A model generated the notes under the pieces. The model made no database searches, was not told the origin of the DNA, and saw nothing but the letters and a program-made list of their open reading frames with translations. Below are positions 19,739-39,658 of a stretch of DNA of 64,000 bases, one piece after another; position 1 is the first letter of the stretch, and each line of letters starts with the position of its first letter. A program made the translations under genes and the position numbers. Source of the stretch: Candidatus Latescibacterota bacterium (GTDB taxonomy: Bacteria; Latescibacterota; UBA2968). Location of the stretch: positions 3,424,001 to 3,488,000 of the forward strand of contig OZ240241.1 of assembly GCA_965198115.1 (NCBI GenBank), given 5' to 3'.

Positions 19739-21983
19739 ATGGCCAGGCGACTATCCAAAGCCGACTCGCTGAATCTGGGTGAAATTGACCGGTTCCTCGA
19801 ATCCGAGAACGCCCTACCGGACGACGAGCAGGAACCGGCTCAGCCCACCGCGCCAAGCGCGGCCCCCGATCCCGAACCCCCACTCGAATCGGAAGCGGAT
19901 GCTCCCGCGACCGAGGAACCAGTGCCCGAACCCAAGGCCCTCAGTGTGGCGGTTTCCGACGACGGTCTCGAAGCGGCTATCCATTCCATCAATCCCGATA
20001 CGACACTCGAATTCGCGCTGGATTCCCTGAAAAACAACGGTGTGACATTTGGGATAGACGAAGATGCGATTCGTCACGCGATCGATCAGGCGAAGGATTC
20101 GAGCCAACCCGTGCGTCGCCAAAGGCACCGAACCAAAGCTCCCTGCGGCACCCAGAATCGAACACCGCCCTCCCGAAGGACTCGATAGCCTTCCGAGTCT
20201 GGCACCGCTGGTCAAAGCGCTCGACCTGGAAGCCCAGGAAGAACTGCTCGAGGGCGTCAAAGACATCACCGTCGTGCCCGTCACGCGAGACGATACGTTG
20301 GCCGAGCTCATCGAGGAGGCCGGCGAGGCCGGCCAAAGTGTGACCGGGGAGCCCATCGATCCACCGCCGCACGAAACGGAAATGGAGTCCGAGGGGCTGC
20401 AACCCGGGGAGGGGGTCGAGCGTGACGCAGACGGACGCTACAAGGCGACACGCTGGGGATACGCCGGCGTTCTGGATGGCAAGGTGACCACCCTCGCCCC
20501 GATCTGGATCTCCCCCGACGCGATGTCTGCATTCCTGATTCACCGACCCCATGAAGGGAGCAACGGGGCAAGCCCCACGGTCGATGACCTCAATGCTGCA
20601 CTGGCCGCACGCAATGTCTCCGTCGGGATCGATGCCGAATGGCTTCAGAAAGTGGCCAGCCGGCTCGCTGAAGGCACGGTGGCCCGCACGCTCGTGCCGC
20701 TTGCTCACGGAGTCGACCCCGAGCCGACGGAGGATGGCCGAATCGATTTCTCGTTCCCGCCGGACACGCAGGCTGGCACGGTCAACACCGACGGATCGAT
20801 CGACCTGAAAGAGCGTAACCTCTTTCCCGGCGTCGAGAAGGACGAACTCCTCGCGGAAACCTTCCCCCCGGTGGAGGGGACGGCTGGAAAAACAGTGACG
20901 GGAGACGACGTCGAAGTGGAACCACCGTTGGCTGTCGAACTCGTGGCCGGAGAAAACACCCGCCTCGTCGAGGAAGGCGCCAAACAAAAAGTCCTCTCCG
21001 AAATCACTGGTGGAGCCTCCGTCAAGACGGTCGAAGTCAGTGGAGGCGACGGAAAGAAGCAGCAATCCACCGTATCCGTGAAGGAGATCGCCCAGGTGTC
21101 GGGCGACGTCAACTACGAAACGGGGAACCTCGATCACAAAGGGAACATCGATGTCAAAGGGAACGTCCTGGGTGGATTCAGCGTTCGGGCGTCGGGGGAC
21201 ATTGTGATTGCTGGAGCGATCGAAGACGGAGCGACCGTCGACTGCGACGGCAGCCTGACCGTGAAGATGGGCGTCTTCGGCGAGAAGACGACTGTAAGGG
21301 CGGGAGAAGAGATCACGGTCAAGTTCATCCAGGATGCGACGGTCCACGCAGGAAGCCACATCAACGTGGGCAGTTACATCCACACCGCATCCGTCCACTC
21401 CGGTGGGCGCGTGATCGTCGAAGGGGGCGGCGGATCGGGAGGTGGCATCATCGGGGGTGAAACCTGGGCGGTGGAGGGCATCACGACCAAGAACTGCGGG
21501 TCGGATCGGAGCGCGACCACCTTCGTGGCGGTCGGCGTGGATCGTGACCTCTACATCGAGTACGACAAAGCAAGGCGAACGGCCGCCAAGGGGAAGACGC
21601 TCCTTCGCAACCTGCTGCGCGCCATCGGCATCGAATCGCTGGAGCCGGAGGTCATCAAAGCCCTCGTCGCACGACAGCGACGCAAGGCGAACGAGATTCT
21701 ACACTACGTGAAGAAGGCCAACGAACTGGCGAGAATCGCGAAAGAAAACGAGGAGGCAGAGAAGACGATTAGGGAGCAGATCGAGCAAGCGAGCAAGGAC
21801 GCTACGCTCGACGTCGGCGACGTCGCCCACGAACGGGTGCGACTCCGGATCGGCAATCGCGAGGTCCGTTTGGACGAAGATCGCAAGGGAGTTCGCTACT
21901 TCTCGGATCAGAAGGAAGACGGCCCCGAAATTACTTACGCGGCACTGTCACCGGAAGGGTCGGAAGAGAAGGAGAGCGGCTGA
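19739..21983 (+). pseudogene. FapA/DUF342 protein, frameshifted near 20114
   Basis: First ORF has VSDDGLEA..NGVTFGIDEDAI; the sequence continues in another frame as VAKGTEP..DGSIDLKE..GDVNYETGNLD..GGIIGG. Confidence 0.75.
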
Positions 21984-25431: not shown

Positions 25432-26628
25432 TCAGTCGATCACATCCGCGATACTTCCGCAAAGATATTCGACATTCTCTTCTGTGACACCGGCGACGTT
25501 GATCCGACCGCCCGTCTTGACGACGTAAATCGCGTGCTTCTCACGCAGGGCGTCTACCTGGGCGGGCGACAGCCCTGAATAAGAAAACATCCCCTTCTGC
25601 CGGGCGATGTAAGAAAAGTCTCGCCTCACACCCGTCCGTTCGAGCGTGTCGACCAGCAACTTGCGGACACCGTTGATTCGATCGCGCATGGCCGTCACCT
25701 CGCTCTCCCATTCCTGCCGAAGCTCGGGGTCGTTCAGCACAGCCGTCACGATCGACGATCCGTGTGCGGGAGGATTGGAATAGTTCGTACGAATGGTGAT
25801 CAGCAGGTGGCTCAGCGCCCGTGCCGCGTCGATTGGAGATTGGGTCACGAGCGTGAGGGCGCCGATTCGCTCACGGTAGAGCCCGAAATTTTTACTGAAC
25901 GAACTGGCGATGAACATCTCGTCGACGTTCGCCACGAGCGTCCTCAGTCCAAGGCCGTCCTGTTCGAAACCTTCCCCCAAACCCTGATAAGCGAAGTCCA
26001 GCAAAGGGATCAGACCACGCGAACGAACGATGTCCGCAACCGTCTCCCACTGAGCCGCCGACGGGTCCATACCCGTAGGGTTGTGACAACAACCGTGCAG
26101 AAGGACGACGTCCTCCACCGGGATCTCGTTCAATGCACCGGCAAAGGTATCGAAGTCGAGCGCGTTGGCGTCGACATCGTAGTAGGGATAGGTTTTCGTC
26201 GCGAGGTGGGCGGCGTCGAACACTTTTGGGTGATTGGCCCACGTCGGATCGCTCAGCCAGAGTGTGGCGTCCGGATAGAGCTTCTGAATGAAGTCACCGG
26301 CAACCCGAAGCGCCCCCGTACCCCCCGGTGTCTGGACCGTACACACCCTTTCGTCAGAAATGACAGGATGTCCTTCGCCGAAGAGAAGGGCCTGGACGGC
26401 GGCCCCGTAGACCGGATCGCCCGAAATCGGGAGGTAGCTTTTGGTCTCTTCGGCCGCCAGAGCTCGTGTTTCGGACTTCTTGACCGATTGGAAAACCGGC
26501 GTCTGTCCGTTGGCATCTTTGTAGACACCGACGGTCAGGTTGATCTTGTTGGGATTGGGATCGTCGTTGAAAGCCGCCGTCAGACCCAGGATCGGATCAG
26601 GCGGCGCCTGTTCGAGTTGGTCAAACAT
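25432..26628 (-). CDS. Aspartate/aromatic amino acid aminotransferase (AspC/TyrB type)
   Basis: PPDPILGL, QTPGGTGAL, HGCCHNPTG, DFAYQG, SFSKNFGLY. Confidence 0.94.
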   Translation of the reverse strand: MFDQLEQAPPDPILGLTAAFNDDPNPNKINLTVGVYKDANGQTPVFQSVKKSETRALAAEETKSYLPISGDPVYGAAVQALLFGEGHPVISDERVCTVQTPGGTGALRVAGDFIQKLYPDATLWLSDPTWANHPKVFDAAHLATKTYPYYDVDANALDFDTFAGALNEIPVEDVVLLHGCCHNPTGMDPSAAQWETVADIVRSRGLIPLLDFAYQGLGEGFEQDGLGLRTLVANVDEMFIASSFSKNFGLYRERIGALTLVTQSPIDAARALSHLLITIRTNYSNPPAHGSSIVTAVLNDPELRQEWESEVTAMRDRINGVRKLLVDTLERTGVRRDFSYIARQKGMFSYSGLSPAQVDALREKHAIYVVKTGGRINVAGVTEENVEYLCGSIADVID

Positions 26629-26718
26629 CCTCTGCATCCTCTGGCAAAGGGTTCCCTGCGTGCGCCGAAAGATACTGAGCCCGCAACAACCGGACAAGCT
26701 CCGGGACCCAGAACCTTC

Positions 26719-29176
26719 TCAGGCGATACACCCTTCGAGCAGCCTGATGACTAACCGTTTGTGCTCGACCCGCATCAGGTTGTCCAACAGTTCGAGGGCG
26801 TTCGACTGGCGATCCTTCTCGGCACTGATCAATCCCACGTAGGCACGCGTCACGTCTTCGCGGGGGTAGATCAGTCCCAATAGCCCGACCACAATCCGCA
26901 GTCTGTGGTCCTTCCCTTCGGCCGTGGTCGGAACACCGGCGTCCGTTTCCTTTCGAATCGCTCGGGTCACCTTCTCCTCGTCAATCTCCAGATTTTCGAC
27001 GCGGGCGTTGATCTCTCCGAGCGCCTCGAGGATCGAAAGACCCAACTCATCCTGGTGCTTTTCCAGAATATCGAGCAGCGTGTCGGCCGCGGCCTGAGTA
27101 CCGATGGCTGCGTAGCACTCAGAAACGGCGCGCCGAATCGCGATCGATTCTTGTGGGTCATCCACATAGTCACGGAGGGCGTGGACGACCCGATCCCCGT
27201 AGCCACGAATCGCGCGCTGAGCATAAATCACGAGGCCCTCGTCGGCCAGGTGCGGAACGACCAGCGGCAGAAAAACGCGACGGCCCGTACGCGACGTGCC
27301 CTCGAGCGCGGATCGAACGACAACGGGGGAATTGTGGCGTAGCAGTTGCATCATCAGATCGTCGTATTCGGGATCGTCAATGGTCCCCAGAATCAGTGCC
27401 ACTTCGGCGGCTGCATCCTCGTCGCCGTAGTCGGGTCCGCACGCCTCCCCGAGCGAATCACGCACCTTCTGCTTTTCCATCGATTCGTTCAGGGCCAGCG
27501 ACCCGATTGCTGCAATACGAACGCGCGAATCCTCATCCTCCAGCAGACTGTTGAGTTTGGCCCCCAGGTATGGGCGCCCGTAGAGACACAGGTAGCGCAC
27601 GGCGATCACCCGTACATCGGCGTTCCCCGAATCGAGCATCGCCTCGGCTTCTTTGACGCACTGGGCCTGAGATTCCTGCCCGAGGACACTCAGGGCTTCG
27701 GCCCTGACCGTTTCTGAAGGATGAGATCGGGCCGCTCGTTCCAGGCCCTCGAGAACCGAAGACTTGTCGTGCATCAAGTCTAGCATCGCCAACGCGCTCA
27801 GTGCCGCGGTTTCATCGGGGTCGTCGAGCTGTTCTGAAAGCAGATCGACCGTGCCGGTGTCCAACACCTCCGCCGCCCGATCCTGAGACTCGCCCGAAAC
27901 ATCAGCGAAGAAGCTTCGCACCGTACTCAGGTATTCCCGTCGGATCACGAAAACAGCAATGAACCAACCTCCAATAATGACCAGCGAGATGATGCTGAGC
28001 ATGCGTATCTGCAGACCCATCACAGCGGTGAAGAACAGGATCATCAATCCGCCCAGACCGTCGAACAATCGAGTACCGAACATATCGATCAAGGGCCGTA
28101 CACGGGCGCGCACTTTCGACGGAAGCGGGAGATACAGGACCTCGAACGTGGCTTCCTGAAGCGAATAGCGAATGCCGCCCTCGGCGAATTTGGAGGCGCT
28201 CGCCACGAGCAACGTGGGATAGATGAGGAATCCGACAGCACCCGTTGACAGAGCGAGGGGCAGCAACACGAGCGAGAAACCGACGCCGAATCGCAGGAGC
28301 AGGTAGCGCGTCCCGATCAGCTGGATGAACAAGGCAATCACGTTCTGGGCGGCAAAGAACTTCGCGAAGAATGACGTCTTTTCGTTCGCAGACGCGAAAG
28401 CTTCGCTCGTCACCGTCTGGAACTGAACATCGAGGATAGCCGACGCGATCATGCTGGCACCGAGGATGGCACCGATCAGCTTGATGTGACGATGCTCCTT
28501 GAGCAGGTCGAGTGCGGACCCTTCGACCGGCTCTTCCGGCCTTTCCGCGCGGCGCTTCGCATCGGCTCTCTCCAGCTTGATCACAAGGGGCAGCATCAGA
28601 ATCATCGCAGCCACCGATACGTAGAGCAGGTTCTCGGTACCGACTCGATCGACCACACGGAACACGATCGTCGGCCCCAGGATGCCACCGATCGTCCCGC
28701 CGGCTCCGACGACGCCGAACAGACGCTTGGCCTCGCGCGGCGTGAACTGGTTTCCGGCCACCAGCCTGAATTGCGTCAGTAGAATCACCGAAAAGAGCTG
28801 TACGAAGACGTAGAACGGCAACGTCACCCAGTCCCCGGCTGTCTCGAACAGCTGGCGGAACAGGAGGAGGAAAGGCCATGAGCGTGAGGGTCGTCGTCAG
28901 GACGGGGGTTCGACTGTCGTAGAGATCTCCTACGTAATCGACCGCCCAGACGAGGAGCCCCGTGACGACCGCCGTAAGCACCATCGCGACGGGGAGCCAG
29001 TCCGGCCCAAGACGGTCGAGCAGCAGTGAGTTTCGCGTCGGCTTCAGCGTCGTGAACGCCGTGAGCGCGAGCATGTAGTAGACCGAGAGCAAGAGGGCCA
29101 CTCGGTTCTCGGGACGGGACAGATCGAACACACTCGCAAGACGGGAAGCACCCTGTTGTTCTCCTGCCAAAAGCAT
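26719..29176 (-). pseudogene. Npt1/TLC-like (ATP/ADP translocase family) transporter fused to HEAT repeats; 1-nt frameshift at about 28872
   Basis: LKPTRNSLLL, FTPREAKRLFG..GGILG, RYSLQEATFEVLYLPLP, IDMFGTR; C-terminal HEAT repeats; deleting one T from ATG GCC TTT CCT joins two ORFs into 818 aa. Confidence 0.78.
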
Positions 29177-29203
29177 TCCTCCTGTGACCTACAAACGTGA
29201 AAG

Positions 29204-29546
29204 TTAGGATGCTTTCACTGGCAAGCGCACCGTCGATCGACTCGGCCGTCTGGAAGACGGCAGCCAGACGTGTCACACGCATGATGCTCTGCACCTTTGG
29301 GGTCATTCCCGACAAGCGAAACTGGCCTTCCGCCTTCTGTACCGACATCAAACTCGCGGACAGAACTCCGAGCATCGAACTCCCGAACCACTGAACCTCA
29401 CTCAGGTCCACGACGACGTTGGCCACGCCCTCGGCGACCAGAGTCTTGACCTCGTCGAGGAGGGGCGCCACTTCGGGTCCGCTCATCATGCTACCCGATA
29501 ACGCCAGCACCGCGGCATCCTCGTGCATCTCTCGTCGAATATCCAC
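29204..29546 (-). CDS. STAS-domain anti-sigma factor antagonist (stop apparently out of frame by 1 nt)
   Basis: VVVDLSEVQWFGSSMLGVL, VTRLAAVF, SIDGAL; the domain ends at about 110 aa but the ORF reads on to 28824. Confidence 0.75.
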
Positions 29547-29561
29547 GCCAGCCCCTTTCGG

Positions 29562-31790
29562 TTAGTTTTGCGTGCCTGCCAGCCACCGGCGCCAGGCATC
29601 GGCATCATCGCCGAGTCGTTCGTCCGTCGTCGTCCGGAGCGCCCGAAGCGCGAACATCCGGACCCCCCGATCTTTGTCTTCGAGCGCCTGAATCAGTCCC
29701 TCGACCCCGGCACGCGCCTTCAGCCGGCCGAGGCCGATGGCAGCTGCCCGCCGGATGGGTACCGCCTCGTGGCGCAACACCGAGACGAGCGCCGGTGCGA
29801 TGGACGTGTCGCCGGACAGACCAAGAGCTTCGACCGCCTCTACAAGGAGCTTCCCGTCGAGCTCAGGCAACACACCGGCGATCGATTCCGCAGCCCCGGC
29901 AAACAGCTTTCGCTCGATGGCTCCTCGAATCGCTGCTCCGCGAACCTCCGCATTTTCGTCCAGGATTGCCCCAAAGAGGGCAACGTTCGAACCGTCGTGA
30001 GAAACGAGAGCCCGAACGACCGCCAGCCTGACACTCGGGTCGGGATCCGCAACCGCCTTGGCCAGGGCCGAAACGGACGACGGGTCCGGCGAAAGCTGAA
30101 GTCCCTTGGCCGCAAGTCGCCGGACCTCGACATCCTCGTCGGACAGACGTGCGCGAAGACCGCGCGAAGATCCGGCGATCCCCATTCCCCAGACCGCCCA
30201 CCGTCTGACCGCGGGCTCCGCATCTGCCAGGAGATCGTGAAGCACCTCCGCACTCTCGCTCGTGCCCGCCCGCGCCACGGCTTGGGCAACCGCTGCTCGC
30301 GTCGCCCCATCGGCATCGCCCGTATACGGGCGCACGTGCGAAACAACGCGAGGCAACCCGGTGCGGCCGAGCTCCTCGATCGCCATCTTGCGCTCCGCCG
30401 TCGATCCCTCGAGATGGCCGGCCAGCGTCTCGACGTAGGTGTCGTCGTCGTGAAGCGTCAGCGCATCGATCGAACGACCCTCGACATCGTAGACATCCAG
30501 GTCCAGCCGTCCACCCCGGATGGTGATCGTGCAGTAGTGCGGCACACTCTCGGACACCGCAGTCCAACTGCTTCGTCCAACCTTATAAAGTGGAGCCCCT
30601 CCTCCGCCTGACACGACCTGTACCACCCCCCGATCGACGCGCTTGTCGCCGCGTAGCGGCCACGTTCTTTCGTAACAATGCTCGTGCCCCGTCAGAACTA
30701 CATCCACGTCGAGTCGCTCGCACAGAGGAACGAGATTCCGCCGGATCGTGAGATTGCTCTTGTGGTAACCGCTGCTGTAGGCCGGGTGGTGCACGACGAC
30801 GAACTTCCATCGGGCCCGACTCGACGCCAGATCCGTCTCGAGCCACACGCGTTGCTCGGTCCCGGCCTCGAGCTCGCCCGATTCGTCGTTTGTGTCGAGC
30901 ACCGCGAAGTGCGCGGGGCCGTAGTCGAACGCATACCACGCCTCGGGCCGCTTCGTAGAACCGTTCGGGGACACTTCGAAGTAGCTGTAGTAAAGCGCGC
31001 TGTCCTTTTCGTGGTTTCCGATGGCCGGATAGATCGGAGCCCGTAAACCGAGCGGGCGAGTGGGCTCGAAATACATGGGCCCCCACTCGGCTTCGACGCG
31101 TCCATCGTTCACAAAGTCTCCCGAATGAATCACGAAATCGAAGGAATGGGTCAGAATCCGCTCGACCACTCGAGTGTGCGTCTTCGGATTCGAACGGCTG
31201 TCCCCATAGAGCGCGAACGTCACTGTCGAATCAGCCGACGCGTTCGTCCTGAATCGTCCCTGAGCGCTGCTGACGCCGTGTGCCGTCACCCGGTAATGGT
31301 AGGGCGTGCCGGGAGTCAGGCCTTCGAACCGAACGCGCCCCTCTCCCCGCTGTTCAACGGCATCTTGACCGTCGGCCTCCAGAAACACGGACGCCTCCGC
31401 CGACGGCGCGACGCCCCACAGGATCGACGTCTCCGTTTCTGTGACGTGCTGCGCATACGGCCCCCTATCGAACCAGACCCCCGCAATGAAGGACGCTTCC
31501 GCTTCGCTCCCCGCCGATGCGACACGGTAGTGATACGTGCGTCCCGGCCTCAGACCGTCCAGAACGACCCGGTGCTCGGTCACGAGGTTCTGGTCGGCCA
31601 CCTCCGCGCCAAAGCTCGGCGTGATCCCGTACGCCACTCGTGAGTCACCGGGTTTTTCCGTCGCCCACGAAATGGCCGCCGCATCCCGTCCGACCGTCTC
31701 TACGTGGGGACCTCGAACAATCCGTACGTCTTCGGCGCACGCTGCAAGAGCAACGAAGCAGAAGGCCGTGCGGATCAGGTGTCTCGTCAT
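29562..31790 (-). CDS. Lipoprotein metallophosphoesterase (purple acid phosphatase-like) with two FN3-like domains and C-terminal HEAT repeats
   Basis: Lipobox LAAC; LRPGRTYHYRV and LTPGTPYHYRV; GDSR, GDFV, GNHE, HHP, GHEHCYER; repeated DxDxxVRxxA units. Confidence 0.85.
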   Translation of the reverse strand: MTRHLIRTAFCFVALAACAEDVRIVRGPHVETVGRDAAAISWATEKPGDSRVAYGITPSFGAEVADQNLVTEHRVVLDGLRPGRTYHYRVASAGSEAEASFIAGVWFDRGPYAQHVTETETSILWGVAPSAEASVFLEADGQDAVEQRGEGRVRFEGLTPGTPYHYRVTAHGVSSAQGRFRTNASADSTVTFALYGDSRSNPKTHTRVVERILTHSFDFVIHSGDFVNDGRVEAEWGPMYFEPTRPLGLRAPIYPAIGNHEKDSALYYSYFEVSPNGSTKRPEAWYAFDYGPAHFAVLDTNDESGELEAGTEQRVWLETDLASSRARWKFVVVHHPAYSSGYHKSNLTIRRNLVPLCERLDVDVVLTGHEHCYERTWPLRGDKRVDRGVVQVVSGGGGAPLYKVGRSSWTAVSESVPHYCTITIRGGRLDLDVYDVEGRSIDALTLHDDDTYVETLAGHLEGSTAERKMAIEELGRTGLPRVVSHVRPYTGDADGATRAAVAQAVARAGTSESAEVLHDLLADAEPAVRRWAVWGMGIAGSSRGLRARLSDEDVEVRRLAAKGLQLSPDPSSVSALAKAVADPDPSVRLAVVRALVSHDGSNVALFGAILDENAEVRGAAIRGAIERKLFAGAAESIAGVLPELDGKLLVEAVEALGLSGDTSIAPALVSVLRHEAVPIRRAAAIGLGRLKARAGVEGLIQALEDKDRGVRMFALRALRTTTDERLGDDADAWRRWLAGTQN

Positions 31791-31804
31791 TCGCACCCTC
31801 GACT

Positions 31805-32614
31805 CTACCCAGAGCTCATGAGTGGAAGCGGGAACATCACTTCGTCCTCGCCGTAAGTCGCGATACGCTCATCGACCATTTTCAAAAGGTTCTGCACACG
31901 GGCCCAGAGCGCGTCGGTTTGATAGCTCTTCAGATACTTCCGCAAGGCCCTGTGGAGCTTCTTCTTTTCCAGCGTCCGAAGCGCTGCGATGGGCTCGCGG
32001 GGGAACCGATACAGAGGACGGATGGGCTTCTCGAACGTGTTGAAACACATGGAGTTGTCAATCACGACCGGGGACCAATCCGTTGCGATCATAATGTTGT
32101 GCGTACCGCGATCGATGTTGTAGATGAGATAGTCGAACATCCACACGGTGTGCAGCCAGTCTCGGAGGACCGAGCCATCGGGGGGAGTCTGGCCGTGCCC
32201 GTAGCGGGGCAAGACGTCTTCGACCCATTCCCGCAGCGATCCCCTCTTGCCGTTGACCTTTCTCTCCACGATGGCAGGCAGAATGTTGAGCTCGAGCAGC
32301 TTGTCCAGTTCGTAGGCCGCGATCTCCGCCTTGTAACTGTCGATGTGCTGGTCTGCGGCTTCCGCCCCGTGCCGAACATCGGCTTCCATAAAGGTGTCGA
32401 TGTTCTTGTAGATCGCGTTCAGCTCAACACCGTCCCTCTCGAGATACACCTTCAACGGTTTGGAGATTCCCGCGCCCACTTCCTTCGTGCGAACAATCTT
32501 CGCCTTCTTCAGAAAGGTCTCTTTGTCCGCTCGGGTCATCTCGCTCGCCGAGGCATCCGTCCAGCAGATGCCTGCAACGAAACAAACTATCGTAGTCAGG
32601 ACTCGACATCTCAC
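31805..32614 (-). CDS. Secreted atypical kinase (Fam20C/PI3-4K-like fold)
   Basis: Signal peptide ending ASA; AIYK, EIAAYELDKLL, GSLREW, FDYLIYNIDRGTHN, IDNSMCF. Confidence 0.72.
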   Translation of the reverse strand: MRCRVLTTIVCFVAGICWTDASASEMTRADKETFLKKAKIVRTKEVGAGISKPLKVYLERDGVELNAIYKNIDTFMEADVRHGAEAADQHIDSYKAEIAAYELDKLLELNILPAIVERKVNGKRGSLREWVEDVLPRYGHGQTPPDGSVLRDWLHTVWMFDYLIYNIDRGTHNIMIATDWSPVVIDNSMCFNTFEKPIRPLYRFPREPIAALRTLEKKKLHRALRKYLKSYQTDALWARVQNLLKMVDERIATYGEDEVMFPLPLMSSG

Positions 32615-33675
32615 GGCTGCCCCCCCGCTGAGAACGCCAAATGCTCATAAAAGTCACCGAACAGATCGATCACATAGGTTGCTTTTCCGGTGTATCGCAT
32701 TTTGAGCAATTGGGAAAAATCGAACAGCACAGAATCCTCGTAAGTCCCGGACCTCAACCCCTCACCCAACGCGACCAGCGCCTCGTCGGACTGGCGGTCG
32801 AACGCGATCGCTTCCTCTTCGCGACCGAGCGAAGCCAGAACCATCGCGTGATCGTTCAGCAGCATCATTCTCGTGCGCTCATCGCCAGCGGCCGTAGCCT
32901 TCTCGAGCGCCCTGGCCAGGGTCGTGAGGGCATCGTCGTGCTTGCCCGACTTCCATTCGGCAACACCGACATTGCGCTGGGCCAGTAGGGCACCGTCGGC
33001 ATCCCCCGCTTCCTCGTAGATGCGCCGGGCTCGTTCGAACAGCCCGGTGGCAGAACCGTGTCCCCCGCTCGACCCTTCTATCCGGCCCAGCCGAGACACG
33101 CACTGCGCAATGGCCAGACTGTCGCCTCAACCCTCCACGGCGCTGATCAGACCCAGATACTTGATGTATCCGTCCTGCACACGATTGCCCTGGCCCGATT
33201 GTCCCAGCACCTCGGCGTGGCAGGGCTCGACTTCGCTCGGTTCGAGCAGCTCCAGAGCCGTCCCCATTTCGGCGATGGCCTTTTCCGGCTCCATGTTCCC
33301 GAACTGGCGCGAGTCGAGAAAAGCCGTGATCGCCCTGGCCCGCGCGAGTTTCCCGACCAGTACGCCGTTCTTCGTCCCACCGAGAAACTCACGGGCCTTC
33401 TCTTGGAAGGAAGCCGCCTCCTCGAGCCTACCGTAGATGGCGTACACACCTCCCAAGTTGGCGGCTGCGATAGCGGCCCGGGCGGGGTCGCCCGACTTTT
33501 CATAGACTGCCCAGGCAGAGTCAGCGAGGGTCCTGGCCGCCTCCCACGATCGGGCGTGAAAGGCCTGTGCGGTTGCGGCGTTGAGATCGTTCTCGGCCCT
33601 TCCACGAGACGGGACCCCGAGCAGAAGAGCGACCCCCAGCGCACCGCACAGCGACGTGCTCAGTTGATTTTTCAA
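32611..33675 (-). pseudogene. Secreted TPR-like protein with an in-frame TGA at 33127-33129
   Basis: RBS GAGGAGG; signal-like N-terminus; TPR-like helices (NLGGVYAIYGRLEEA, NVGVAEWKSGKHDDA); the two ORFs share one frame across AVEG*GDSLA. Confidence 0.7.
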
Positions 33676-33713
33676 CGAGAACCTCCTCGGGGTGGGAACG
33701 TGGCATCCACTAA

Positions 33714-34974
33714 GTGCATGGTTTCATAAACATTATTACGTATGTCTTGAACATTATTTGTAGCTTATGTTCTCCTTCAAAAGGAGGAGAACAATGCCAA
33801 GACGTTCGCCTTATGTGGTGCTACTGTCTGAGAAGGAACGGGTCGACCTCGAGCGAATGGCTGGACAATATACGTTACCGTATTATCAAGTGATCCGATC
33901 GAAAATCGTGCTTCTCGCCGCCGAGGGATTATCCAACAAGATTATCGCCCAACGGTTGGATGTCCCGCGTCCGATCGTAAGCAAATGGCGTAAGCGCTTT
34001 TTCGAAGAGCGTCTTTCGGGACTCGAAGATAGATCTCGTCCCGGGCGCCCGCCCGGTTTTCCCCCCTCAGGTGGTCGTTCAGATCAAGGCGCTGGCGTGT
34101 GAACTACCGAGCGAGAGCGGGATACCGCTCTCGCGGTTCAGCTGTTCCGAGATTGCCGCCGAGGCAGTGCAAAGGGGCTTCGTTGCCAAGATCAGCGGCG
34201 CCACTGTCTGGCGCTGGTTGAACGAGGACGCGATTCGTCCTTGGTATCATCGCTCCTGGATTTTCCCACGGGACCCGGACTTCCAAACCAAAGCAGGTAG
34301 AGTCCTTGATCTGTATCACCGCCAATGGCAAGGAAAGCCTTTAGGGCCGAGGGAATATGTACTTTCTGCCGACGAAAAGACCAGTATTCAAGCACGAGCT
34401 CGCAAGCACGTTACCCTACCGCCAGCCTCGAACAGAGCGGCACGCGTTGAACACGAATACGAGCGGAAAGGAGCCCTGGCCTATCTGGCTGCTCTCGACG
34501 TGCACAATGGTCGAATCTTCGGTCTCTGTGAGTCTTCTTCGGGTATCGAGCCCTTCAACCGGCTCCTGAGCCTGATCATGAGCCGGAAACCCTATTGCTC
34601 GGCAAAGAAAGTCTACCTCATCGTGGATAATGGCTCCTCGCACCGAGGGCAAACATGCATCGACCGTATCCAGGGGAAGTGGCCAAACATCCACCCCGTT
34701 CACCTTCCGATCCACGCAAGCTGGCTCAATCAGATCGAGATCTACTTCTCGATCCTCAAACGCAAGGCTCTGACACCTATCGAATTTACATCGCTCGAAG
34801 AGCTTGAGGCAAGAATCCTCGGTTTTCAGGAACGCTACGGACGTATCGCCACACCCTTCAAATGGAAGTTCACACGAACAGATCTCGCGGAGATGATCGA
34901 CAAACTCAGGTTCTACGATACGCCCTTGGCAAAGTCTGCTTAGAATACGTCACCGTATTTGAGAACAGGAGTAC
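33714..34974 (+). mobile_element. IS630-family insertion sequence (about 1260 bp)
   Basis: Flanked by a duplicated TAA (33711-13, 34975-77); degenerate TIRs; visibly lower GC than the flanks. Confidence 0.85.
33794..34943 (+). CDS. IS630 transposase, orfA/orfB joined by a -1 frameshift
   Basis: HTH orfA (SKWRKRF..RPGRP); TTTTCCCCCC at 34057-34066; orfB with DEKT, DNGSSH and WLNQIE. Confidence 0.9.
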
Positions 34975-35038
34975 TAAGGCGACGACTACACGCGTCAAGC
35001 GACGATGACAACAGCGTCAGCAAGCTGTCCCCACCGTT

Positions 35039-35327: not shown

Positions 35328-37901
35328 ATGACCCTCAGGCTGTTTATGGCAACTCTCTTGTTGGGAGCCCCCGCGGCCGCCCAACCCCCCTCTCCCGAAT
35401 CGCACATCGGCTTCCGGGTCGGAACCGACTACAAGATCGCGAGCTGGTCCCAGATCGTCGACTATTTCTCCGTGCTGGCCGACGCCTCCGACCGAATCGA
35501 GGTAGAAACCCTGGGTGAATCCACGAACGGACGCCCGTTCATCGTCGCCCTCATCTCCTCTCCTCAGAATCTCGCTCGGAAGGACGCCATCAAGGCCGAT
35601 CAGCGAAAGCTCGCCGATCCGCGTCTGCTGACCGACGACGAGGCCGGAGACATCGCCTCGCGCGGCAAAGCGGTGGTGCTGATCGGATGCAACATCCACG
35701 CGACGGAGATCGCGTCGTCTCAGATGTCCATGGAACTGGCCCACTCGCTCGTCACTGGCGAAGATGCCGCTATCCGATCGATCAGGGAAAACGTCGTTCT
35801 TCTCCTGGTCCCCTCCATCAACCCCGACGGTATCGACATCGTGCGTGACTGGTATCTGGAAACCCTCGGCACCGCTTGGGAAGGAACCGACCCCCCTCGG
35901 CTTTACCATCCCTACACGGGGCACGACAACAATCGGGATTGGTTCATGCTGACACAGGTGGAGACCCGTCTGATGACCCGCCTGCTCTACCAGATGTGGT
36001 TTCCACAGATCGTCTACGACGTACACCAGATGAAAAACAGCGGCGCGCGTTTCTTCGTGCCACCCTTCTTCGATCCGCTCAACCCGAACGTACCTCCTCT
36101 GCTCCAGCGGCAAATCATGCTCGTCGGTGCCCACATGGCCCACGACCTCCAGGTCCATGACAAACCCGGTGTCATCACCTCCGCCATCTACGACATGTGG
36201 TGGCACGGCGGGTTCAGGAGCACCCCTTACAGACACAACACCGTGGGCGTCCTGACCGAGGCGGCCAGCGCCCGGATCGCGACACCCATCTTCCAGACGC
36301 AGGCTGACCTGACCGGACAGCATCGCGGCCTCCCCAAATACTGGCTGCAGTCGAATTTTCCGCAACCCTGGCAGGGCGGGTGGTGGCGTTTGCGCGACAT
36401 CGTCGACTACGAGCTGATCGCCGCACGATCGTTACTCGCCCTCGCTTCGACCCATCGAAAAGACTGGCTCCAGAACCAGGTGCTGCTCGGCAGGCGTGCG
36501 ATCGACGCAGGTAAAACGGAGCCGCCCTATGCCTTCGTTGTCCCGCTCGGCCAGCACGACCCCGTCGCGGCCTACGAGATGCTTCGCATCCTGCACGAGG
36601 GCGGTGTGGAGATCCACCGCGCCGAACAGGATTTCGAAGCCGACGGTGTCCGCTACGCCCGCGGATCGCACGCCATCCTGATGGCCCAGCCATACCGCGC
36701 CCACGCCAAAGACCTGCTCGAACGACAACGTTACCCGGATCGCCGGGTCGGTGGAGAGGAGGGACCGCCTGAAAAACCCTATGACGTCACGGGCTGGACC
36801 CTCCCCCTCCAGATGGGTGTTCACACCGTGGAGGTGGTCGATTCGTTCGAGGCCGAACTGGTCATTGTCCAGCCTGCCCTGCCAACCCATCGCGTGCCCG
36901 CTGCCGACGCGGGATACTACCTCGCCAACACAACCAACCACGATGTCATCGCCCTGAACCGGCTGACGAAAAAGGGCTACAACGCCTACTGGACGAACGA
37001 GGAGAGCAAGGTGGGCTCGCGCAGGCTGCCGCGGGGCGTGCTGTTCTTCGCATCAAAAGGCGGGTTGACGGCAGAAATGACGAGACTGGCGAATGAACTG
37101 GGTATCGAGCCCCTTTCGGGCAAGAAGCCGGCGCGCGGCTATCGTCTCCGCAAACCTCGTCTCGGCCTCTACCAACCGTATGCGAGCGTCCTAGACAAGG
37201 CTGCGGGCGCAGAAGACGAGGGCTGGACCCGTTGGGTTCTGGAACGGTATGAGTTCGACTACAAGACCCTCTATGACGCGGAAATCCGGGCGGGCGATCT
37301 CGTATCTCGCTACGACGTTATCCTGCTCCCGAACGTTGCGCTGGATCAACTCCTTTCGGGCAATTCGACGGCCGAGATGCCTCCCAGGTATGCGGGTGGC
37401 ATCGGCGACCACGGCGCAGACCAGCTGGTCGCCTTCGTTCACGCCGGGGGCACGCTCATCTGCACGGGGAACGCAACGGAATTCGGCGTAGACCGGTTCG
37501 ATCTGGGGATACAAGAAGTGGAGGGAGATCACGAAACCTTCGACCCCTTCTACGCGCCAGGTTCGATCCTGCAGGTCGATCTCGACGAGACGCATCCCGT
37601 TGCGTTCGGCCGTCGTTCGCCCCTCCCGATCTACTTTGCTCAAAACCCGGTGTTCGAGACGACGGGGTCGGCATTGCCCGTGGCCACCTATCCCAACTTC
37701 AACCCCCTCATGAGCGGCTGGATTCACGGGGACGAGCTGATCAGGAACAAAACCGCCCTGATCGACGCAACTGTAGGGAAGGGGAAAGTCCTTCTGTTCG
37801 GATTTCGCCCCCAACACCGGGCGCAGCCTCACGCCACCTTCAAGCTGCTCTTCAACGCCATCTACTACGGGAACGCTGAACCCGGTGTTCGAGTCAACTG
37901 A
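35328..37901 (+). CDS. Secreted M14 family zinc carboxypeptidase
   Basis: Signal peptide; IHATE, NPDG, DNNRD, DVHQ; C-terminal DEGWTRW domain. Confidence 0.88.
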   Translation: MTLRLFMATLLLGAPAAAQPPSPESHIGFRVGTDYKIASWSQIVDYFSVLADASDRIEVETLGESTNGRPFIVALISSPQNLARKDAIKADQRKLADPRLLTDDEAGDIASRGKAVVLIGCNIHATEIASSQMSMELAHSLVTGEDAAIRSIRENVVLLLVPSINPDGIDIVRDWYLETLGTAWEGTDPPRLYHPYTGHDNNRDWFMLTQVETRLMTRLLYQMWFPQIVYDVHQMKNSGARFFVPPFFDPLNPNVPPLLQRQIMLVGAHMAHDLQVHDKPGVITSAIYDMWWHGGFRSTPYRHNTVGVLTEAASARIATPIFQTQADLTGQHRGLPKYWLQSNFPQPWQGGWWRLRDIVDYELIAARSLLALASTHRKDWLQNQVLLGRRAIDAGKTEPPYAFVVPLGQHDPVAAYEMLRILHEGGVEIHRAEQDFEADGVRYARGSHAILMAQPYRAHAKDLLERQRYPDRRVGGEEGPPEKPYDVTGWTLPLQMGVHTVEVVDSFEAELVIVQPALPTHRVPAADAGYYLANTTNHDVIALNRLTKKGYNAYWTNEESKVGSRRLPRGVLFFASKGGLTAEMTRLANELGIEPLSGKKPARGYRLRKPRLGLYQPYASVLDKAAGAEDEGWTRWVLERYEFDYKTLYDAEIRAGDLVSRYDVILLPNVALDQLLSGNSTAEMPPRYAGGIGDHGADQLVAFVHAGGTLICTGNATEFGVDRFDLGIQEVEGDHETFDPFYAPGSILQVDLDETHPVAFGRRSPLPIYFAQNPVFETTGSALPVATYPNFNPLMSGWIHGDELIRNKTALIDATVGKGKVLLFGFRPQHRAQPHATFKLLFNAIYYGNAEPGVRVN

Positions 37902-37915
37902 ACAGGAGCCGCATC

Positions 37916-39658
37916 GTGCCTGAACATCTCCACATCACCGACCCGGTCGCCCCACCCAACTGGGCTCTGCTGCAGCGCGCCCTGATCGATGCCCAATCCG
38001 AAGCGATCGGCGTCTACTTCCAAAAGTACTTCGACGAACGGGGCTACCTCCAGTGCGTGCCCCGCTGGGGCGGCAACGACGGGCCCGACGACGCGGCCGA
38101 AAACATGCTCAATTGGACGCTGTTACACGCCCTCGGGGCCCCCGACCACGTGCTCGACCGATACAAGATCGCGTGGAACGGCCACCTCAAGCAGTATACG
38201 GAAGCCAAGACCGTCGAGGTCGAGCTGGGGCGTGATGGGATGTACTACAAAGAATTCCCGACAACGTTCGATTGGTTCCACCACGGCGAATGGCTCTCGG
38301 CGTTCGTCCTGCAGGGTCTGACCGACCCGAAGGACGCCGACTACGTCGCCCGAACCCGACGCTATGCGGGATTCTACAACGGTGAAGATGTGCAGGCCTT
38401 GAACTACGACAAAGAACGCAAGCTCATCAAAAGCATGTTCAACGGCAGCCGCGGCCCCCTCCTCCGAAAAGCAACCGCCCTCGACTGGACGGGCGATCCG
38501 ATCGAGATCGAGGGACGTTTCCGTCCAGGTCACGGCGAGGCGACCTTCGAACAGATGCTCGAGCACTTCAAGGACTACACCGACGTCGTCGGCGATCATC
38601 CTCTCAACTTGGGCGCAACGACCCTGGGCTTCAACGCCTTCGCGCTGACCGGCGAAGCGAAATACCGCGACTGGGTCGTCGAATACGTGGACGCGTGGAT
38701 CGAGCGCACCGAGGCCAACGACGGGATCATCCCGAGCAACATCGGTCTGGATGGCACGATCGGAGGAGAGACAGACGGGAAATGGTATGGAGGGTGTTAC
38801 GGGTGGGCGTTCAGCGTGCACAACCCGGCAACCGGCCAGATGAACCATCGGAACTCCAGCATCGGGCGAACGCACTATGCTTTTGCCAACGCCTTCCTCC
38901 TGACGGGCGATCGTCGCTACCTCGACCCCTGGGGTCGTATGCTCGATCAGATCAACAGCCACGCAAAAGAGGTCGACGGCAAGACCGTCTATCCTCGGGG
39001 CTATGGCGACGACGGGTGGTACGCGTTCCAGGAGGAACCGGTCAGCTCTGGCGCCCTCGAGCTCTATTTCTGGACGCAGGACGAGAAAGATCGGCCACGC
39101 ATTCCGGACTCCCCGTGGCTCGACTATGTCGAGGGGCGGAACGACGACTATCCCGCGAGGGCCCTGCGGCACGACTTCGAGCGACTCAGGGCTAAGCTCG
39201 CCCGGATGCGCGCCGACGACAGCGCACCGGATATGCGCATGTCCGACGACATGAACGGCACGAATCCCGCCACGACCGATGCCCTCGTCCAGACGATGCT
39301 CGGCGGCATCCCCACCGGCCGAGTGGGTTACCCCCTTCACTGTCGAGTGCGCTATTTCGATCCCGATCGGCGACGCGCCGGTCTTCCCGAAGACGTTGGC
39401 GCACTCGTGACCGGGTTCGACGACACAACGACTGCGATCGACCTCGTCAACACGAATCCCACGCACGTACGCACCGTCGTCGTGCAAGCTGGCGCCTACG
39501 GCGAGCATCAGATCGAGCAGGTCACCTCCGGTTCGGACACGCTGACGGTCGGGGACCGTGCCTTCGGACTGCGCCTCGATCCGGGGTGCGGCGGATCGCT
39601 TTCCATCCGGCAGAGACGCTACGCGAACACACCGACGCTCGCCTTACCCTGGGTGTAG
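37916..39658 (+). CDS. Conserved-looking hypothetical protein, possibly an (alpha/alpha)-barrel enzyme
   Basis: 580-aa ORF with RBS; aromatic/acidic motifs DGPDDAAE, DWFHHGE, WYGGCYGW. Confidence 0.6.
   Translation: MPEHLHITDPVAPPNWALLQRALIDAQSEAIGVYFQKYFDERGYLQCVPRWGGNDGPDDAAENMLNWTLLHALGAPDHVLDRYKIAWNGHLKQYTEAKTVEVELGRDGMYYKEFPTTFDWFHHGEWLSAFVLQGLTDPKDADYVARTRRYAGFYNGEDVQALNYDKERKLIKSMFNGSRGPLLRKATALDWTGDPIEIEGRFRPGHGEATFEQMLEHFKDYTDVVGDHPLNLGATTLGFNAFALTGEAKYRDWVVEYVDAWIERTEANDGIIPSNIGLDGTIGGETDGKWYGGCYGWAFSVHNPATGQMNHRNSSIGRTHYAFANAFLLTGDRRYLDPWGRMLDQINSHAKEVDGKTVYPRGYGDDGWYAFQEEPVSSGALELYFWTQDEKDRPRIPDSPWLDYVEGRNDDYPARALRHDFERLRAKLARMRADDSAPDMRMSDDMNGTNPATTDALVQTMLGGIPTGRVGYPLHCRVRYFDPDRRRAGLPEDVGALVTGFDDTTTAIDLVNTNPTHVRTVVVQAGAYGEHQIEQVTSGSDTLTVGDRAFGLRLDPGCGGSLSIRQRRYANTPTLALPWV

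What the first reader, a model, noticed from the sequence alone, without database searches (positions are those of the whole stretch)
26719..33675. Candidate extracytoplasmic phosphorylation system: secreted kinase, lipoprotein phosphatase, ATP/ADP translocase-HEAT fusion, STAS and TPR-like protein
Seen: five co-oriented, tightly packed genes (a GTGA overlap, then gaps of about 14-27 nt). They encode a signal-peptide TPR-like protein, a signal-peptide kinase with intact catalytic motifs, a LAAC-lipobox metallophosphoesterase with HEAT repeats, a STAS protein and an Npt1/TLC-like transporter with HEAT repeats. Known: Npt1/TLC proteins exchange ATP/ADP in Chlamydia, Rickettsia and plastids; HEAT-fused homologues in free-living bacteria have no established role that I know of; Fam20-type kinases act in the eukaryotic secretory lumen; the periplasm is generally considered ATP-poor. 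Inference: the translocase exports ATP to fuel a periplasmic kinase that the phosphatase reverses, with HEAT/TPR scaffolds and STAS as the cytoplasmic link. I know of no described system with this composition.
Basis: partly seen in the sequence, partly recalled or inferred. Interest (0 to 1): 0.9.

Follow-up and report, generated by a model that had tools for sequence, protein, structure and literature searches.

The report
Exported kinase-phosphatase with ATP-carrier gene
This operon puts an exported kinase shaped like the animal Golgi kinase Fam20 and an exported phosphatase beside an ATP/ADP-carrier-type transporter, a pairing that recurs in two bacterial phyla and likely means these bacteria send ATP into the periplasm to run reversible phosphorylation there, although this genome's copy of the transporter gene is broken.

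Summary
The five genes are real and co-oriented, but this copy is decaying. The TPR gene has an internal stop, the STAS frame runs past its usual end, the transporter is frameshifted, and an IS sits 35 nt upstream; a read-derived contig shows the same letters. An intact orthologue (TPR-kinase-STAS-NTT-HEAT-aspC) lies in a relative (L108).

The kinase model matches Fam20 best (Z 19.1), keeps its catalytic residues and has a signal-peptide-like N-terminus (105 of 115 homologues). In 151 Acidobacteriota genomes, all 38 with this kinase carry an NTT, against 26 of 113 without it. 18 of 108 kinase matches lie within 5 kb of an NTT (0.8 expected). Two unrelated exported phosphatases accompany it, one often fused to it. 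A second, unrelated exported kinase family also sits beside NTTs (41 of 41 genomes carry one).

Best reading (0.5): the NTT exports ATP for a periplasmic kinase/phosphatase cycle. Against it: the lysine needed for ATP transport in known NTTs is Asp here, no substrate is known, and the exact five-gene set recurs nowhere. No description was found in eight paper searches. The scan noted this idea before on other DNA (e1-6755263; eight notes on the second family).

The parts
33710..34979 (+). IS630-type insertion element 35 nt upstream of the operon's first start codon (family label recalled from the transposase)
   Evidence: 1270-nt copies at >99.6% identity elsewhere in the genome; loose read ends at 33709-33710
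32611..33675 (-). Signal-peptide TPR gene, broken by an in-frame TGA at 33129-33127
   Evidence: Pfam TPR_12 on both halves; one 338-372 aa ORF in L005, L006, L108; 36% identity over 322 aa to L108 with one stop
31805..32614 (-). Exported atypical kinase of Fam20-like fold, 269 aa, intact
   Evidence: AlphaFold pLDDT 88; Foldseek top hits Fam20, E 3e-8; VIA Z 19.1, rmsd 3.3, 238 aligned to Hydra Fam20; D168, N173, D186 invariant in 46 homologues
29562..31796 (-). Lipoprotein metallophosphoesterase: two Fn3/PAP-N domains, purple-acid-phosphatase-type catalytic domain, C-terminal HEAT repeats; 744 aa, intact
   Evidence: Pfam; nearest solved enzymes are diphosphonucleotide phosphatase 3zk4 (E 8e-10) and purple acid phosphatases; lipobox-like Cys also in L004 and L006
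28824..29546 (-). STAS (anti-sigma-antagonist-type) gene; domain about 29546-29217; the frame lacks the usual stop and runs on to 28824
   Evidence: Pfam STAS; TIGR00377 53.4 bits against cut-off 53.45; relatives are 110-125 aa
26719..29176 (-). NTT/TLC-family transporter fused to C-terminal HEAT repeats, frameshifted between 28925 and 28869
   Evidence: Pfam TLC + HEAT_2; family profile hits only Chlamydia and Arabidopsis NTT1 strongly in the PDB, E 5.5e-47 and 3.1e-42; intact 811-aa orthologue in L108, 50-60% identical in two frames
25432..26628 (-). Aminotransferase class I/II (aspC-like); same position after the NTT in L108, so a positional marker and probably not a part of the system
   Evidence: Pfam PF00155 E 8e-83; 64% identity to the L108 gene
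24006..25379 (-). IS256-type element downstream of the aminotransferase (family label recalled)
   Evidence: 1374-nt copies at 99.6-100% identity elsewhere in the genome

Best explanation
This is a damaged copy of a recurring gene module in which an NTT-family carrier likely exports ATP from the cytoplasm so that a signal-peptide kinase with a predicted Fam20-like fold can phosphorylate a still unknown envelope target, which an exported phosphatase would then dephosphorylate. Shown: the genes, their domains, the repeated linkage, the phosphatase-kinase fusions, the one-way dependence of the kinase on an NTT gene, and the breaks in this copy. Predicted: the kinase fold and its export. Inferred: (1) the carrier runs outward, because an exchanger in an ATP-rich free-living cell would move ATP down its gradient; (2) ADP from the kinase and phosphate from the phosphatase would return on the same carrier, as characterised NTTs swap ATP for ADP plus phosphate; (3) the target is most likely a protein, because the commonest partner phosphatase is of the Shewanella protein-tyrosine-phosphatase type; (4) the cytoplasmic HEAT tail, with STAS or a cyclic-nucleotide-binding domain, would gate export, and the exported TPR protein would act as adaptor or substrate. 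In this genome the intact kinase and phosphatase could only be served by the two other NTT-HEAT genes, whose frames are open.
For: Fold: Fam20 ranks first by two programs. D92/E97, D168 and D186 align with or correspond to the Fam20C motifs; Glu306 and Asp478 are essential in Fam20C (passages of PMC5865150 and PMC5413348). Export: hydrophobic N-terminal segment in 105 of 115 homologues starting with Met, against 18 of 468 internal windows (hydropathy heuristic, not SignalP). Linkage: NTT within 5 kb in 17 of 80 genome loci, 11 of 45 with full flanks; 23 of 80 metagenome loci; 18 of 108 matches against 0.8 expected. NTT-linked kinases need 12 label changes on a quick tree, at least 10 forced by well-supported branches, so this is not one inherited block. 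Dependence: 38 of 38 kinase genomes have an NTT against 26 of 113 others; 35 of 35 tested genomes whose kinase had no NTT beside it have one elsewhere. Phosphatase: Shewanella-type within 5 kb in 15 of 80 loci and PAP-type in 2 of 80; 17 of 19 longer homologues carry a metallophosphoesterase domain; 10 of 12 fusion loci of 6 kb or more have an NTT within 5 kb. Convergence: a second exported family with an atypical-kinase fold (Z 14.3 CtkA, 13.3 Fam20) and no profile similarity to the first lies within 500 nt of an NTT in 19 of 54 placements, and all 41 genomes with it have an NTT, against 84 of 168 overall. Transport chemistry: ATP against ADP + Pi (abstract of PMC2606016).
Against: The column that holds Lys in Chlamydia and Arabidopsis NTT1 (taken as AtNTT1 K527, needed for ATP and Pi transport and 'conserved in all' ATP/ADP transporters in PMC2606016; my numbering is inferred) is Asp in the window and Glu in L108 and L005. 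It is Lys in only 16 of 45 kinase-linked NTT rows (counted by eye). The window's and L108's carriers score far below the TIGR00769 cut-off (39 and 31 against 387). Most kinases are not next to an NTT: 63 of 80 and 90 of 108. Genomes are related, so the genome counts overstate independence, and larger genomes may hold both genes more often. One weak kinase match (G145, E 7e-12) lies in a genome with no NTT match. No other locus seen has all five genes. NTT-HEAT fusions occur widely, including in cyanobacteria and chlamydiae (PMC5381601), where I did not test for such kinases. E. coli has measurable periplasmic ATP without an ATP/ADP translocase (passages of PMC7432876), so a dedicated carrier is not strictly required. 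No substrate is identified.
Confidence: 0.5

Rival explanations
1. The NTT-HEAT protein is a membrane signal relay, not an ATP exporter. The exported kinase and phosphatase would set the phosphorylation state of its outer loops, or of a ligand that it senses, and the HEAT tail would pass the signal to STAS, cNMP-binding or response-regulator proteins. ATP would come from leakage or from a plain NTT encoded elsewhere.
For: HEAT-fused carriers of this clade lack the Lys. Many loci carry two NTT genes, one plain and one HEAT-fused, and in several loci of the second family the plain one keeps the Lys. STAS lies within 5 kb in 6 of 80 loci. cNMP-binding domains are fused or adjacent, and response regulators follow.
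Against: Plain NTTs with no cytoplasmic tail sit directly beside the kinase in L019, L049, L055, L065 and L083. The carrier family's only strong structural relatives are ATP/ADP exchangers. The two readings can both hold.
Confidence: 0.22
2. The module handles small molecules. The kinase would phosphorylate a glycan, lipid or nucleoside in the envelope, and the phosphatase and carrier would salvage or import nucleotides from outside, for example from a host or from lysed cells.
For: The best fold matches include the xylose kinase-type Hydra Fam20 (Z 19.1) and PI4KII lipid kinases (Z 17.0). The window's phosphatase is nearest to a diphosphonucleotide phosphatase. Characterised NTTs import nucleotides and NAD (PMC5381601).
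Against: The commoner partner and the fusion partner is a protein-phosphatase type (1v73, E 1e-41). Pure import would starve a periplasmic kinase of ATP. No sugar or lipid pathway genes recurred among the most shared neighbours. A non-protein substrate with ATP export remains compatible with the best explanation.
Confidence: 0.18
3. The kinase is a secreted effector or toxin acting on other cells, with the TPR protein as chaperone or immunity protein, and the NTT link reflects shared mobile islands.
For: Fold relatives include CtkA (Z 14.6) and HipA-type kinases (Z about 10). The family is patchy (6 of 168 genomes in the window's phylum), with up to 11 matches per genome. The TPR gene lies directly upstream in 5 of 5 loci of the window's subfamily.
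Against: The TPR partner occurs in only 3 of 80 loci. No secretion system was recognised among the most shared neighbours. Fusion to a reversing phosphatase and the 38 of 38 dependence on an NTT gene are not expected of an effector that uses target-cell ATP.
Confidence: 0.06
4. The genes are neighbours by descent or co-regulation only, with no biochemical coupling.
For: Most kinase copies lie away from NTT genes, gene order varies, and this copy is decaying.
Against: About 20-fold excess of adjacency, repeated across the kinase tree, with two unrelated kinase families and two unrelated phosphatases.
Confidence: 0.04

Closest known systems
Fam20 secretory-pathway kinases (Fam20C Golgi casein kinase, Fam20B xylose kinase; PDB 5xom, 5yh0, 4kqa)
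   Same: Best fold match (Z 17.5-19.1), matching catalytic motifs, export signal, work outside the cytoplasm and so need ATP delivered across a membrane.
   Different: Bacterial, about 245 aa mature against 350-420 aa in the solved chains, 18-22% identity, best sequence E only 0.27; paired with or fused to a phosphatase; substrate unknown.
NTT-HEAT(-cNBD) fusion clade of free-living bacteria (Major, Embley and Williams 2017, PMC5381601)
   Same: NTT domain with C-terminal HEAT repeats; paralogues in this genome have an adjacent or fused cNMP-binding domain.
   Different: That paper (parts 1-3 of 4 read) calls the function unknown, suggests regulated ATP uptake or transfer, and mentions no kinase, phosphatase or STAS neighbours.
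Characterised ATP/ADP NTTs (Chlamydia NTT1 9j3n, Arabidopsis NTT1 9j3j; Pfam PF03219, TIGR00769)
   Same: Homologous over the whole membrane domain (profile E 5.5e-47 and 3.1e-42); 11 hydrophobic segments called in the intact orthologue.
   Different: They import ATP into parasites or plastids and have no HEAT tail. The Lys linked to gamma-phosphate handling is Asp/Glu here, and scores are far below the TIGR00769 cut-off.
CotH spore-coat kinases (PF08757, PDB 5jda)
   Same: Bacterial atypical kinase related to Fam20C that acts on extracytoplasmic proteins (passage of PMC12189002).
   Different: Weaker fold match (Z 11.2); no PF08757 match in this genome; no NTT or phosphatase partner known to me (recalled).
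Omp85 + lipoprotein kinase + NTT module (second locus of this genome, L001; earlier scan notes e1-9712567 and others, unpublished AI notes)
   Same: Exported atypical kinase, exported phosphoesterase and NTT/NTT-HEAT carriers together.
   Different: A different kinase family (555 aa with Fn3 tail; hhalign probability 0.5%) with an Omp85 barrel; no TPR or STAS.

Membership tests
Fam20 kinases | Fam20/PI3K-like atypical kinase fold | tested here: met
   Model-based: Z 19.1, rmsd 3.3, 238 aligned; Foldseek ranks 1-10 are all Fam20 chains
Fam20 kinases | Catalytic and metal-binding residues (Glu306, catalytic Asp, Asp478 of Fam20C) | tested here: met
   D92/E97, D168 and D186 align with the Fam20 motifs; D168 and D186 invariant. 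The Fam20C numbers other than Glu306, Lys271 and Asp478 are recalled.
Fam20 kinases | Significant sequence match to the family | tested here: not met
   No Pfam Fam20C hit at E 0.1; best phmmer E 0.27. It resembles Fam20 in fold but is not filed as a member.
Fam20 kinases | Phosphorylates S-x-E proteins or xylose in a secretory compartment | not testable with these tools
   Needs enzyme assays
NTT/TLC nucleotide transporters (PF03219) | PF03219 above the gathering score and homology to solved NTT1 | tested here: met
   42.6 bits against 21; profile E 5.5e-47
NTT-HEAT fusion clade | NTT domain fused to C-terminal HEAT repeats | tested here: met
   TLC + HEAT_2 in one frame in the window; intact 811-aa orthologue L108
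NTT-HEAT fusion clade | Placement in the monophyletic clade of Major et al. | not tested
   Their sequences and supplement were not used
ATP/ADP-exchanging NTTs | Lysine equivalent to AtNTT1 K527 | tested here: not met
   Asp in the window, Glu in L108 and L005; Lys in 16 of 45 kinase-linked rows; the numbering is inferred
ATP/ADP-exchanging NTTs | Measured ATP/ADP counter-exchange | not testable with these tools
   Needs a transport assay
Purple acid phosphatase-type metallophosphoesterases | Fn3-like N-domain plus catalytic domain with GD, GNH, H and GHxH motifs | tested here: met
   Pfam Pur_ac_phosph_N and Metallophos; PAP structures E 8e-10 to 2e-5; motifs read
Purple acid phosphatase-type metallophosphoesterases | Tyr ligand of the GDxxY motif (chromophore; motif recalled) | tested here: not met
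   Asn at that place in the translation; a PAP-like enzyme, not a purple one
CotH kinases | PF08757 match | tested here: not met
   No match in the genome, control positive in 4 of 14; none
HipA-type toxin-antitoxin kinases | Cytoplasmic kinase with an adjacent DNA-binding antitoxin | tested here: not met
   Signal-peptide-like N-terminus; the upstream gene is an exported TPR protein; fold Z about 10, well below Fam20
SCO1664 family (TIGR03843) | Score above the curated cut-off | tested here: not met
   33.9 against 172.4 bits

The most novel reading that the evidence does not exclude
Many free-living diderm bacteria run a dedicated periplasmic phosphorylation network. NTT carriers, known as ATP importers of parasites and plastids, work in reverse to export ATP and take back ADP and phosphate, feeding at least two independently recruited families of exported Fam20-like kinases and their phosphatases. 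This would be a bacterial counterpart of Golgi-lumen phosphorylation and a first function for the NTT-HEAT clade.
Probability: 0.4. Interest if true: 0.93.

Novelty: categorically new. Interest (0 to 1): 0.78.

Why it matters
How ATP crosses the bacterial inner membrane outward is stated as an open question (passages of PMC7432876), and the widespread NTT-HEAT carriers have no known function (PMC5381601). A small soluble kinase, a phosphatase and a carrier make both questions directly testable by expression in E. coli. If the reading holds, envelope proteins or glycans in abundant soil, sediment and marine bacteria are regulated by phosphorylation outside the cytoplasm. The family also offers a minimal bacterial model for the Fam20 fold. 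This particular copy is useful as a pointer only; the intact locus L108 or a fused phosphatase-kinase (P0137, named by its source as from Corallincola platygyrae) is the better test object.

Tried and rejected
Assembly error as the cause of the breaks: rejected, since a read-derived contig is identical; it is not fully independent.

Selective loss of this operon: not established. 17 of 136 orthologues of intact genes from a same-genus genome are broken in this genome (21 of 144 before filtering for coding-like ORFs). That gives P = 0.12 for two clear breaks in five genes and 0.016 for three, so general genome decay explains much of it.

Recoding of the TPR stop: no support; relatives have Lys/Gln there.

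Kinase-TPR binding: the complex predictor was not available, so this was not tested.

Expression: no RNA holder listed.

Promoter and terminator scan: no excess over shuffles.

Metagenome scan with P0137 alone: nothing confirmed, so the surroundings of that cultured organism's gene were not seen.

ESM Atlas: only unnamed or 'PI4K family' clusters, commonest phylum Acidobacteriota.

Substrate hunt among neighbours: Hanks-type kinases (15 of 80 within 5 kb by a strict profile), GWxTD, TonB-dependent receptor, SdiA-regulated and transketolase genes recur only within clades; no candidate.

Earlier scan notes by sequence and by place: nothing.

Paper searches listed no paper whose title or abstract start describes this module; most subscription journals are not covered.

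The kinase tree is the quick version; the careful search did not finish.


Full report
Setting. The window is part of a single 8.4-Mb contig. Genomes labelled 'same order' hold the two named Candidatus Latescibacterota loci L005 and L006, so the organism belongs to that phylum.

Observation. Five minus-strand genes lie between 33675 and 26719: a TPR protein, a 269-aa kinase-like protein, a 744-aa metallophosphoesterase with Fn3 and HEAT domains and a lipobox, a STAS protein, and an NTT/TLC transporter with HEAT repeats (Pfam). The TPR frame has an internal TGA at 33129-33127 where relatives have Lys or Gln. The STAS frame lacks its stop and runs to 28824, while relatives end after about 110-125 residues. 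The transporter changes frame between 28925 and 28869. A 1270-nt repeated element sits 35 nt upstream of the first start codon. One contig from each of two runs of one sample covers 26600-33738 with no differences, so the breaks are probably real, with the caveat that this may be the source sample. The genome is generally eroded: 17 of 136 orthologues of intact genes of a same-genus genome are broken. Two clear breaks in five genes are then unremarkable (P 0.12); three are mildly so (P 0.016). An intact orthologue, TPR (338 aa) - kinase - STAS - NTT-HEAT (811 aa) - aminotransferase, lies in G066 (L108).

The kinase. 161 homologues of similar length were found. An AlphaFold model from 46 of them has pLDDT 88. 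Foldseek ranks Fam20 chains first to tenth. The independent wide search gives Hydra Fam20 Z 19.1 (rmsd 3.3, 238 aligned), zebrafish Fam20C 18.4, PI4KII 17.0, CtkA 14.6, CotH 11.2 and HipA 10.7. The weak sequence alignments to Fam20 (best E 0.27) fall on the catalytic motifs, and D168, N173 and D186 are invariant. Asp478 and Glu306 are essential in Fam20C (passages seen in PMC5413348 and PMC5865150). A hydrophobic N-terminal segment is present in 105 of the 115 homologues that begin with Met (of 120 listed), against 18 of 468 internal control windows; several misses are truncated gene calls. This is a heuristic, not SignalP. It is a separate bacterial family with a Fam20-like fold, not a Fam20 member by sequence.

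The transporter. A profile of 20 kinase-linked or same-genome NTT rows matches Chlamydia and Arabidopsis NTT1 at E 5.5e-47 and 3.1e-42; the only other hit was SLC37A2 at 5.8e-6. PMC2606016 (abstract and passages) shows that such carriers swap ATP for ADP plus phosphate and that K527 of AtNTT1 is needed and conserved in ATP/ADP exchangers. I located K527 by an offset fixed from recalled residue numbers. At that column the window has Asp, and L108 and L005 have Glu. Among 45 kinase-linked rows I counted 16 Lys, 14 Asp, 10 Thr, 2 Glu and 3 others. This is the main evidence against plain ATP/ADP exchange by this subclade. I did not see that paper's supplementary alignment, nor any paper on the solved structures (search 45 returned none).

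The phosphatase. The window's enzyme is of purple-acid-phosphatase type and accompanies the kinase in 2 of 80 other loci. A different exported enzyme, close to the Shewanella protein-tyrosine phosphatase (E 1e-41), does so in 15 of 80. 17 of 19 longer kinase homologues carry a metallophosphoesterase domain, and 22 of 80 metagenome loci encode such fusions (that scan was seeded with fusions). A paralogue of the PAP-HEAT protein without a signal peptide lies elsewhere in this genome (L003), so that architecture is not exclusive to the module.

Linkage. In the best 80 of 264 genome loci, an NTT lies within 5 kb in 17 (8 within 1 kb), and NTT plus phosphatase in 9. In an even sample of 151 genomes from the phylum of L050 (Acidobacteriota), 38 have the kinase and 64 an NTT. 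All 38 are among the 64, against 26 of the other 113, and 18 of 108 kinase matches are within 5 kb of an NTT against 0.8 expected. Of the 63 loci without a neighbouring NTT I tested the genomes of 35, chosen for long contigs, and all 35 have an NTT elsewhere. On a quick tree of 94 kinases the NTT label changes 12 times, at least 10 forced by well-supported branches. In the window's own phylum the kinase is rare: 6 of 168 genomes, 3 of 8 matches within 3 kb of an NTT, and one weak match in a genome without an NTT. Related genomes are not independent, so these counts overstate significance. No other locus seen has all five genes. L004 has TPR-kinase-PAP, L005 STAS-TPR-kinase-NTT (split by an insertion), L006 STAS-TPR-kinase-PAP, and L108 TPR-kinase-STAS-NTT. 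The TPR gene is limited to this subfamily.

A second family. The same genome has another locus (L001): Omp85-like protein, phosphoesterase lipoprotein, 555-aa lipoprotein, a broken plain NTT, NTT-HEAT and a cNMP-binding gene. The 555-aa protein models at pLDDT 85.6 as an atypical kinase (CtkA Z 14.3, Fam20 13.3, PI4KII 12.4, CotH 12.3) with an Fn3 tail, and it has no profile similarity to the window's kinase. It occurs in 41 of 168 genomes, all of which have an NTT (84 of 168 overall). 19 of 54 placements are within 500 nt of an NTT and 29 within 10 kb (10 of 64 rows left out as further fragments of one gene, and 12 of 162 NTT rows were not listed). Two unrelated exported kinases and two unrelated exported phosphatases thus meet the same carrier family.

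Mechanism. The simplest account is supply of ATP. An exported kinase needs ATP in a compartment where it is scarce and quickly hydrolysed; an exchanger in an ATP-rich cell would run outward; and kinase plus phosphatase yield ADP and phosphate, the counter-substrates of known NTTs. These steps are inference. I give this 0.5, a signal-relay role for NTT-HEAT 0.22, small-molecule modification or salvage 0.18, an effector role 0.06 and no coupling 0.04.

Literature. PMC5381601 (parts 1-3 of 4 of the text read; supplement not seen) describes NTT-HEAT and NTT-HEAT-cNBD fusions as uncharacterised and names no kinase link. PMC7432876 (passages) says that the route of ATP to the periplasm is unknown in E. 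coli, which lacks such a translocase but has periplasmic ATP. PMC12189002 (passages) describes CotH as Fam20C-like. In PMC7948968 a word search found 'bacteria' only in a reference title. Searches listed nothing that describes the module; these cover open-access papers and bioRxiv only.

Earlier scan notes. e1-6755263 reports an NTT-HEAT, cNMP and fused phosphatase-kinase operon in another genome, and eight notes describe the Omp85-kinase-NTT module. They agree with my reading but are not independent evidence. What this work adds is the stand-alone small kinase with TPR, PAP-HEAT and STAS partners, the genome-level dependence counts, the non-conserved lysine, and the finding that this copy is broken.

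Verdict. The module is real, recurrent and not found described in the searches made; the ATP-export mechanism is plausible but unproven; the window's copy is probably not functional as a whole. Interest 0.78.

Noticed in passing
L001:5526-16155 (G000:C1 about 6083500-6094200): Second NTT locus of this genome: Omp85-like gene, phosphoesterase lipoprotein, 555-aa kinase-fold lipoprotein, plain NTT in two frames beside insertion elements, NTT-HEAT (897 aa, open frame), cNMP-binding gene.
   Followed up: yes
L002:7700-10714: Third NTT gene of this genome, an NTT-HEAT with a C-terminal cNMP-like domain (domain recognised by eye), with no kinase match in the 20-kb locus.
   Followed up: partly
L003:7288-9126: Paralogue of the PAP-HEAT phosphoesterase (34% identity) that lacks a signal peptide; a stop lies directly upstream in frame.
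   Followed up: partly
whole genome G000: General decay: 17 of 136 tested orthologues are broken, four of them consecutive (L105). The two flanking insertion elements give 95 and 178 BLAST pieces in the genome.
   Followed up: partly
window 28827-28824: The stop of the run-on STAS frame overlaps (GTGA) the start of the 702-aa C-terminal transporter ORF, so a carrier lacking its first helices could be made by translational coupling; this may be chance.
   Followed up: no
alignment A1, rows P0047, P0053, P0058, P0069, P0080: A kinase subgroup lacks both the beta-3 Lys (K70) and the helix-C Glu (E97) but keeps the catalytic Asp residues; possibly a pseudokinase or an altered ATP site.
   Followed up: no
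L049, L055, L065, L074; G246:C23:44511-48880: Tandem arrays of three to five kinase paralogues beside a Shewanella-type phosphatase and/or NTT genes.
   Followed up: partly
L009, L010, L013, L018, L020, L021, L072: In Thermoanaerobaculia-type loci the exported kinase directly follows a Hanks-type Ser/Thr kinase gene; a candidate partner or substrate in that clade.
   Followed up: partly
window 37916-39658 (+): 580-aa protein with no Pfam match at E 0.1, downstream of an M14 carboxypeptidase gene (35328-37901).
   Followed up: no
window 19739-21983 (+): Two overlapping ORFs (149 and 639 aa) that look like one FapA/DUF342-type gene split by a frameshift (label recalled, not tested).
   Followed up: no
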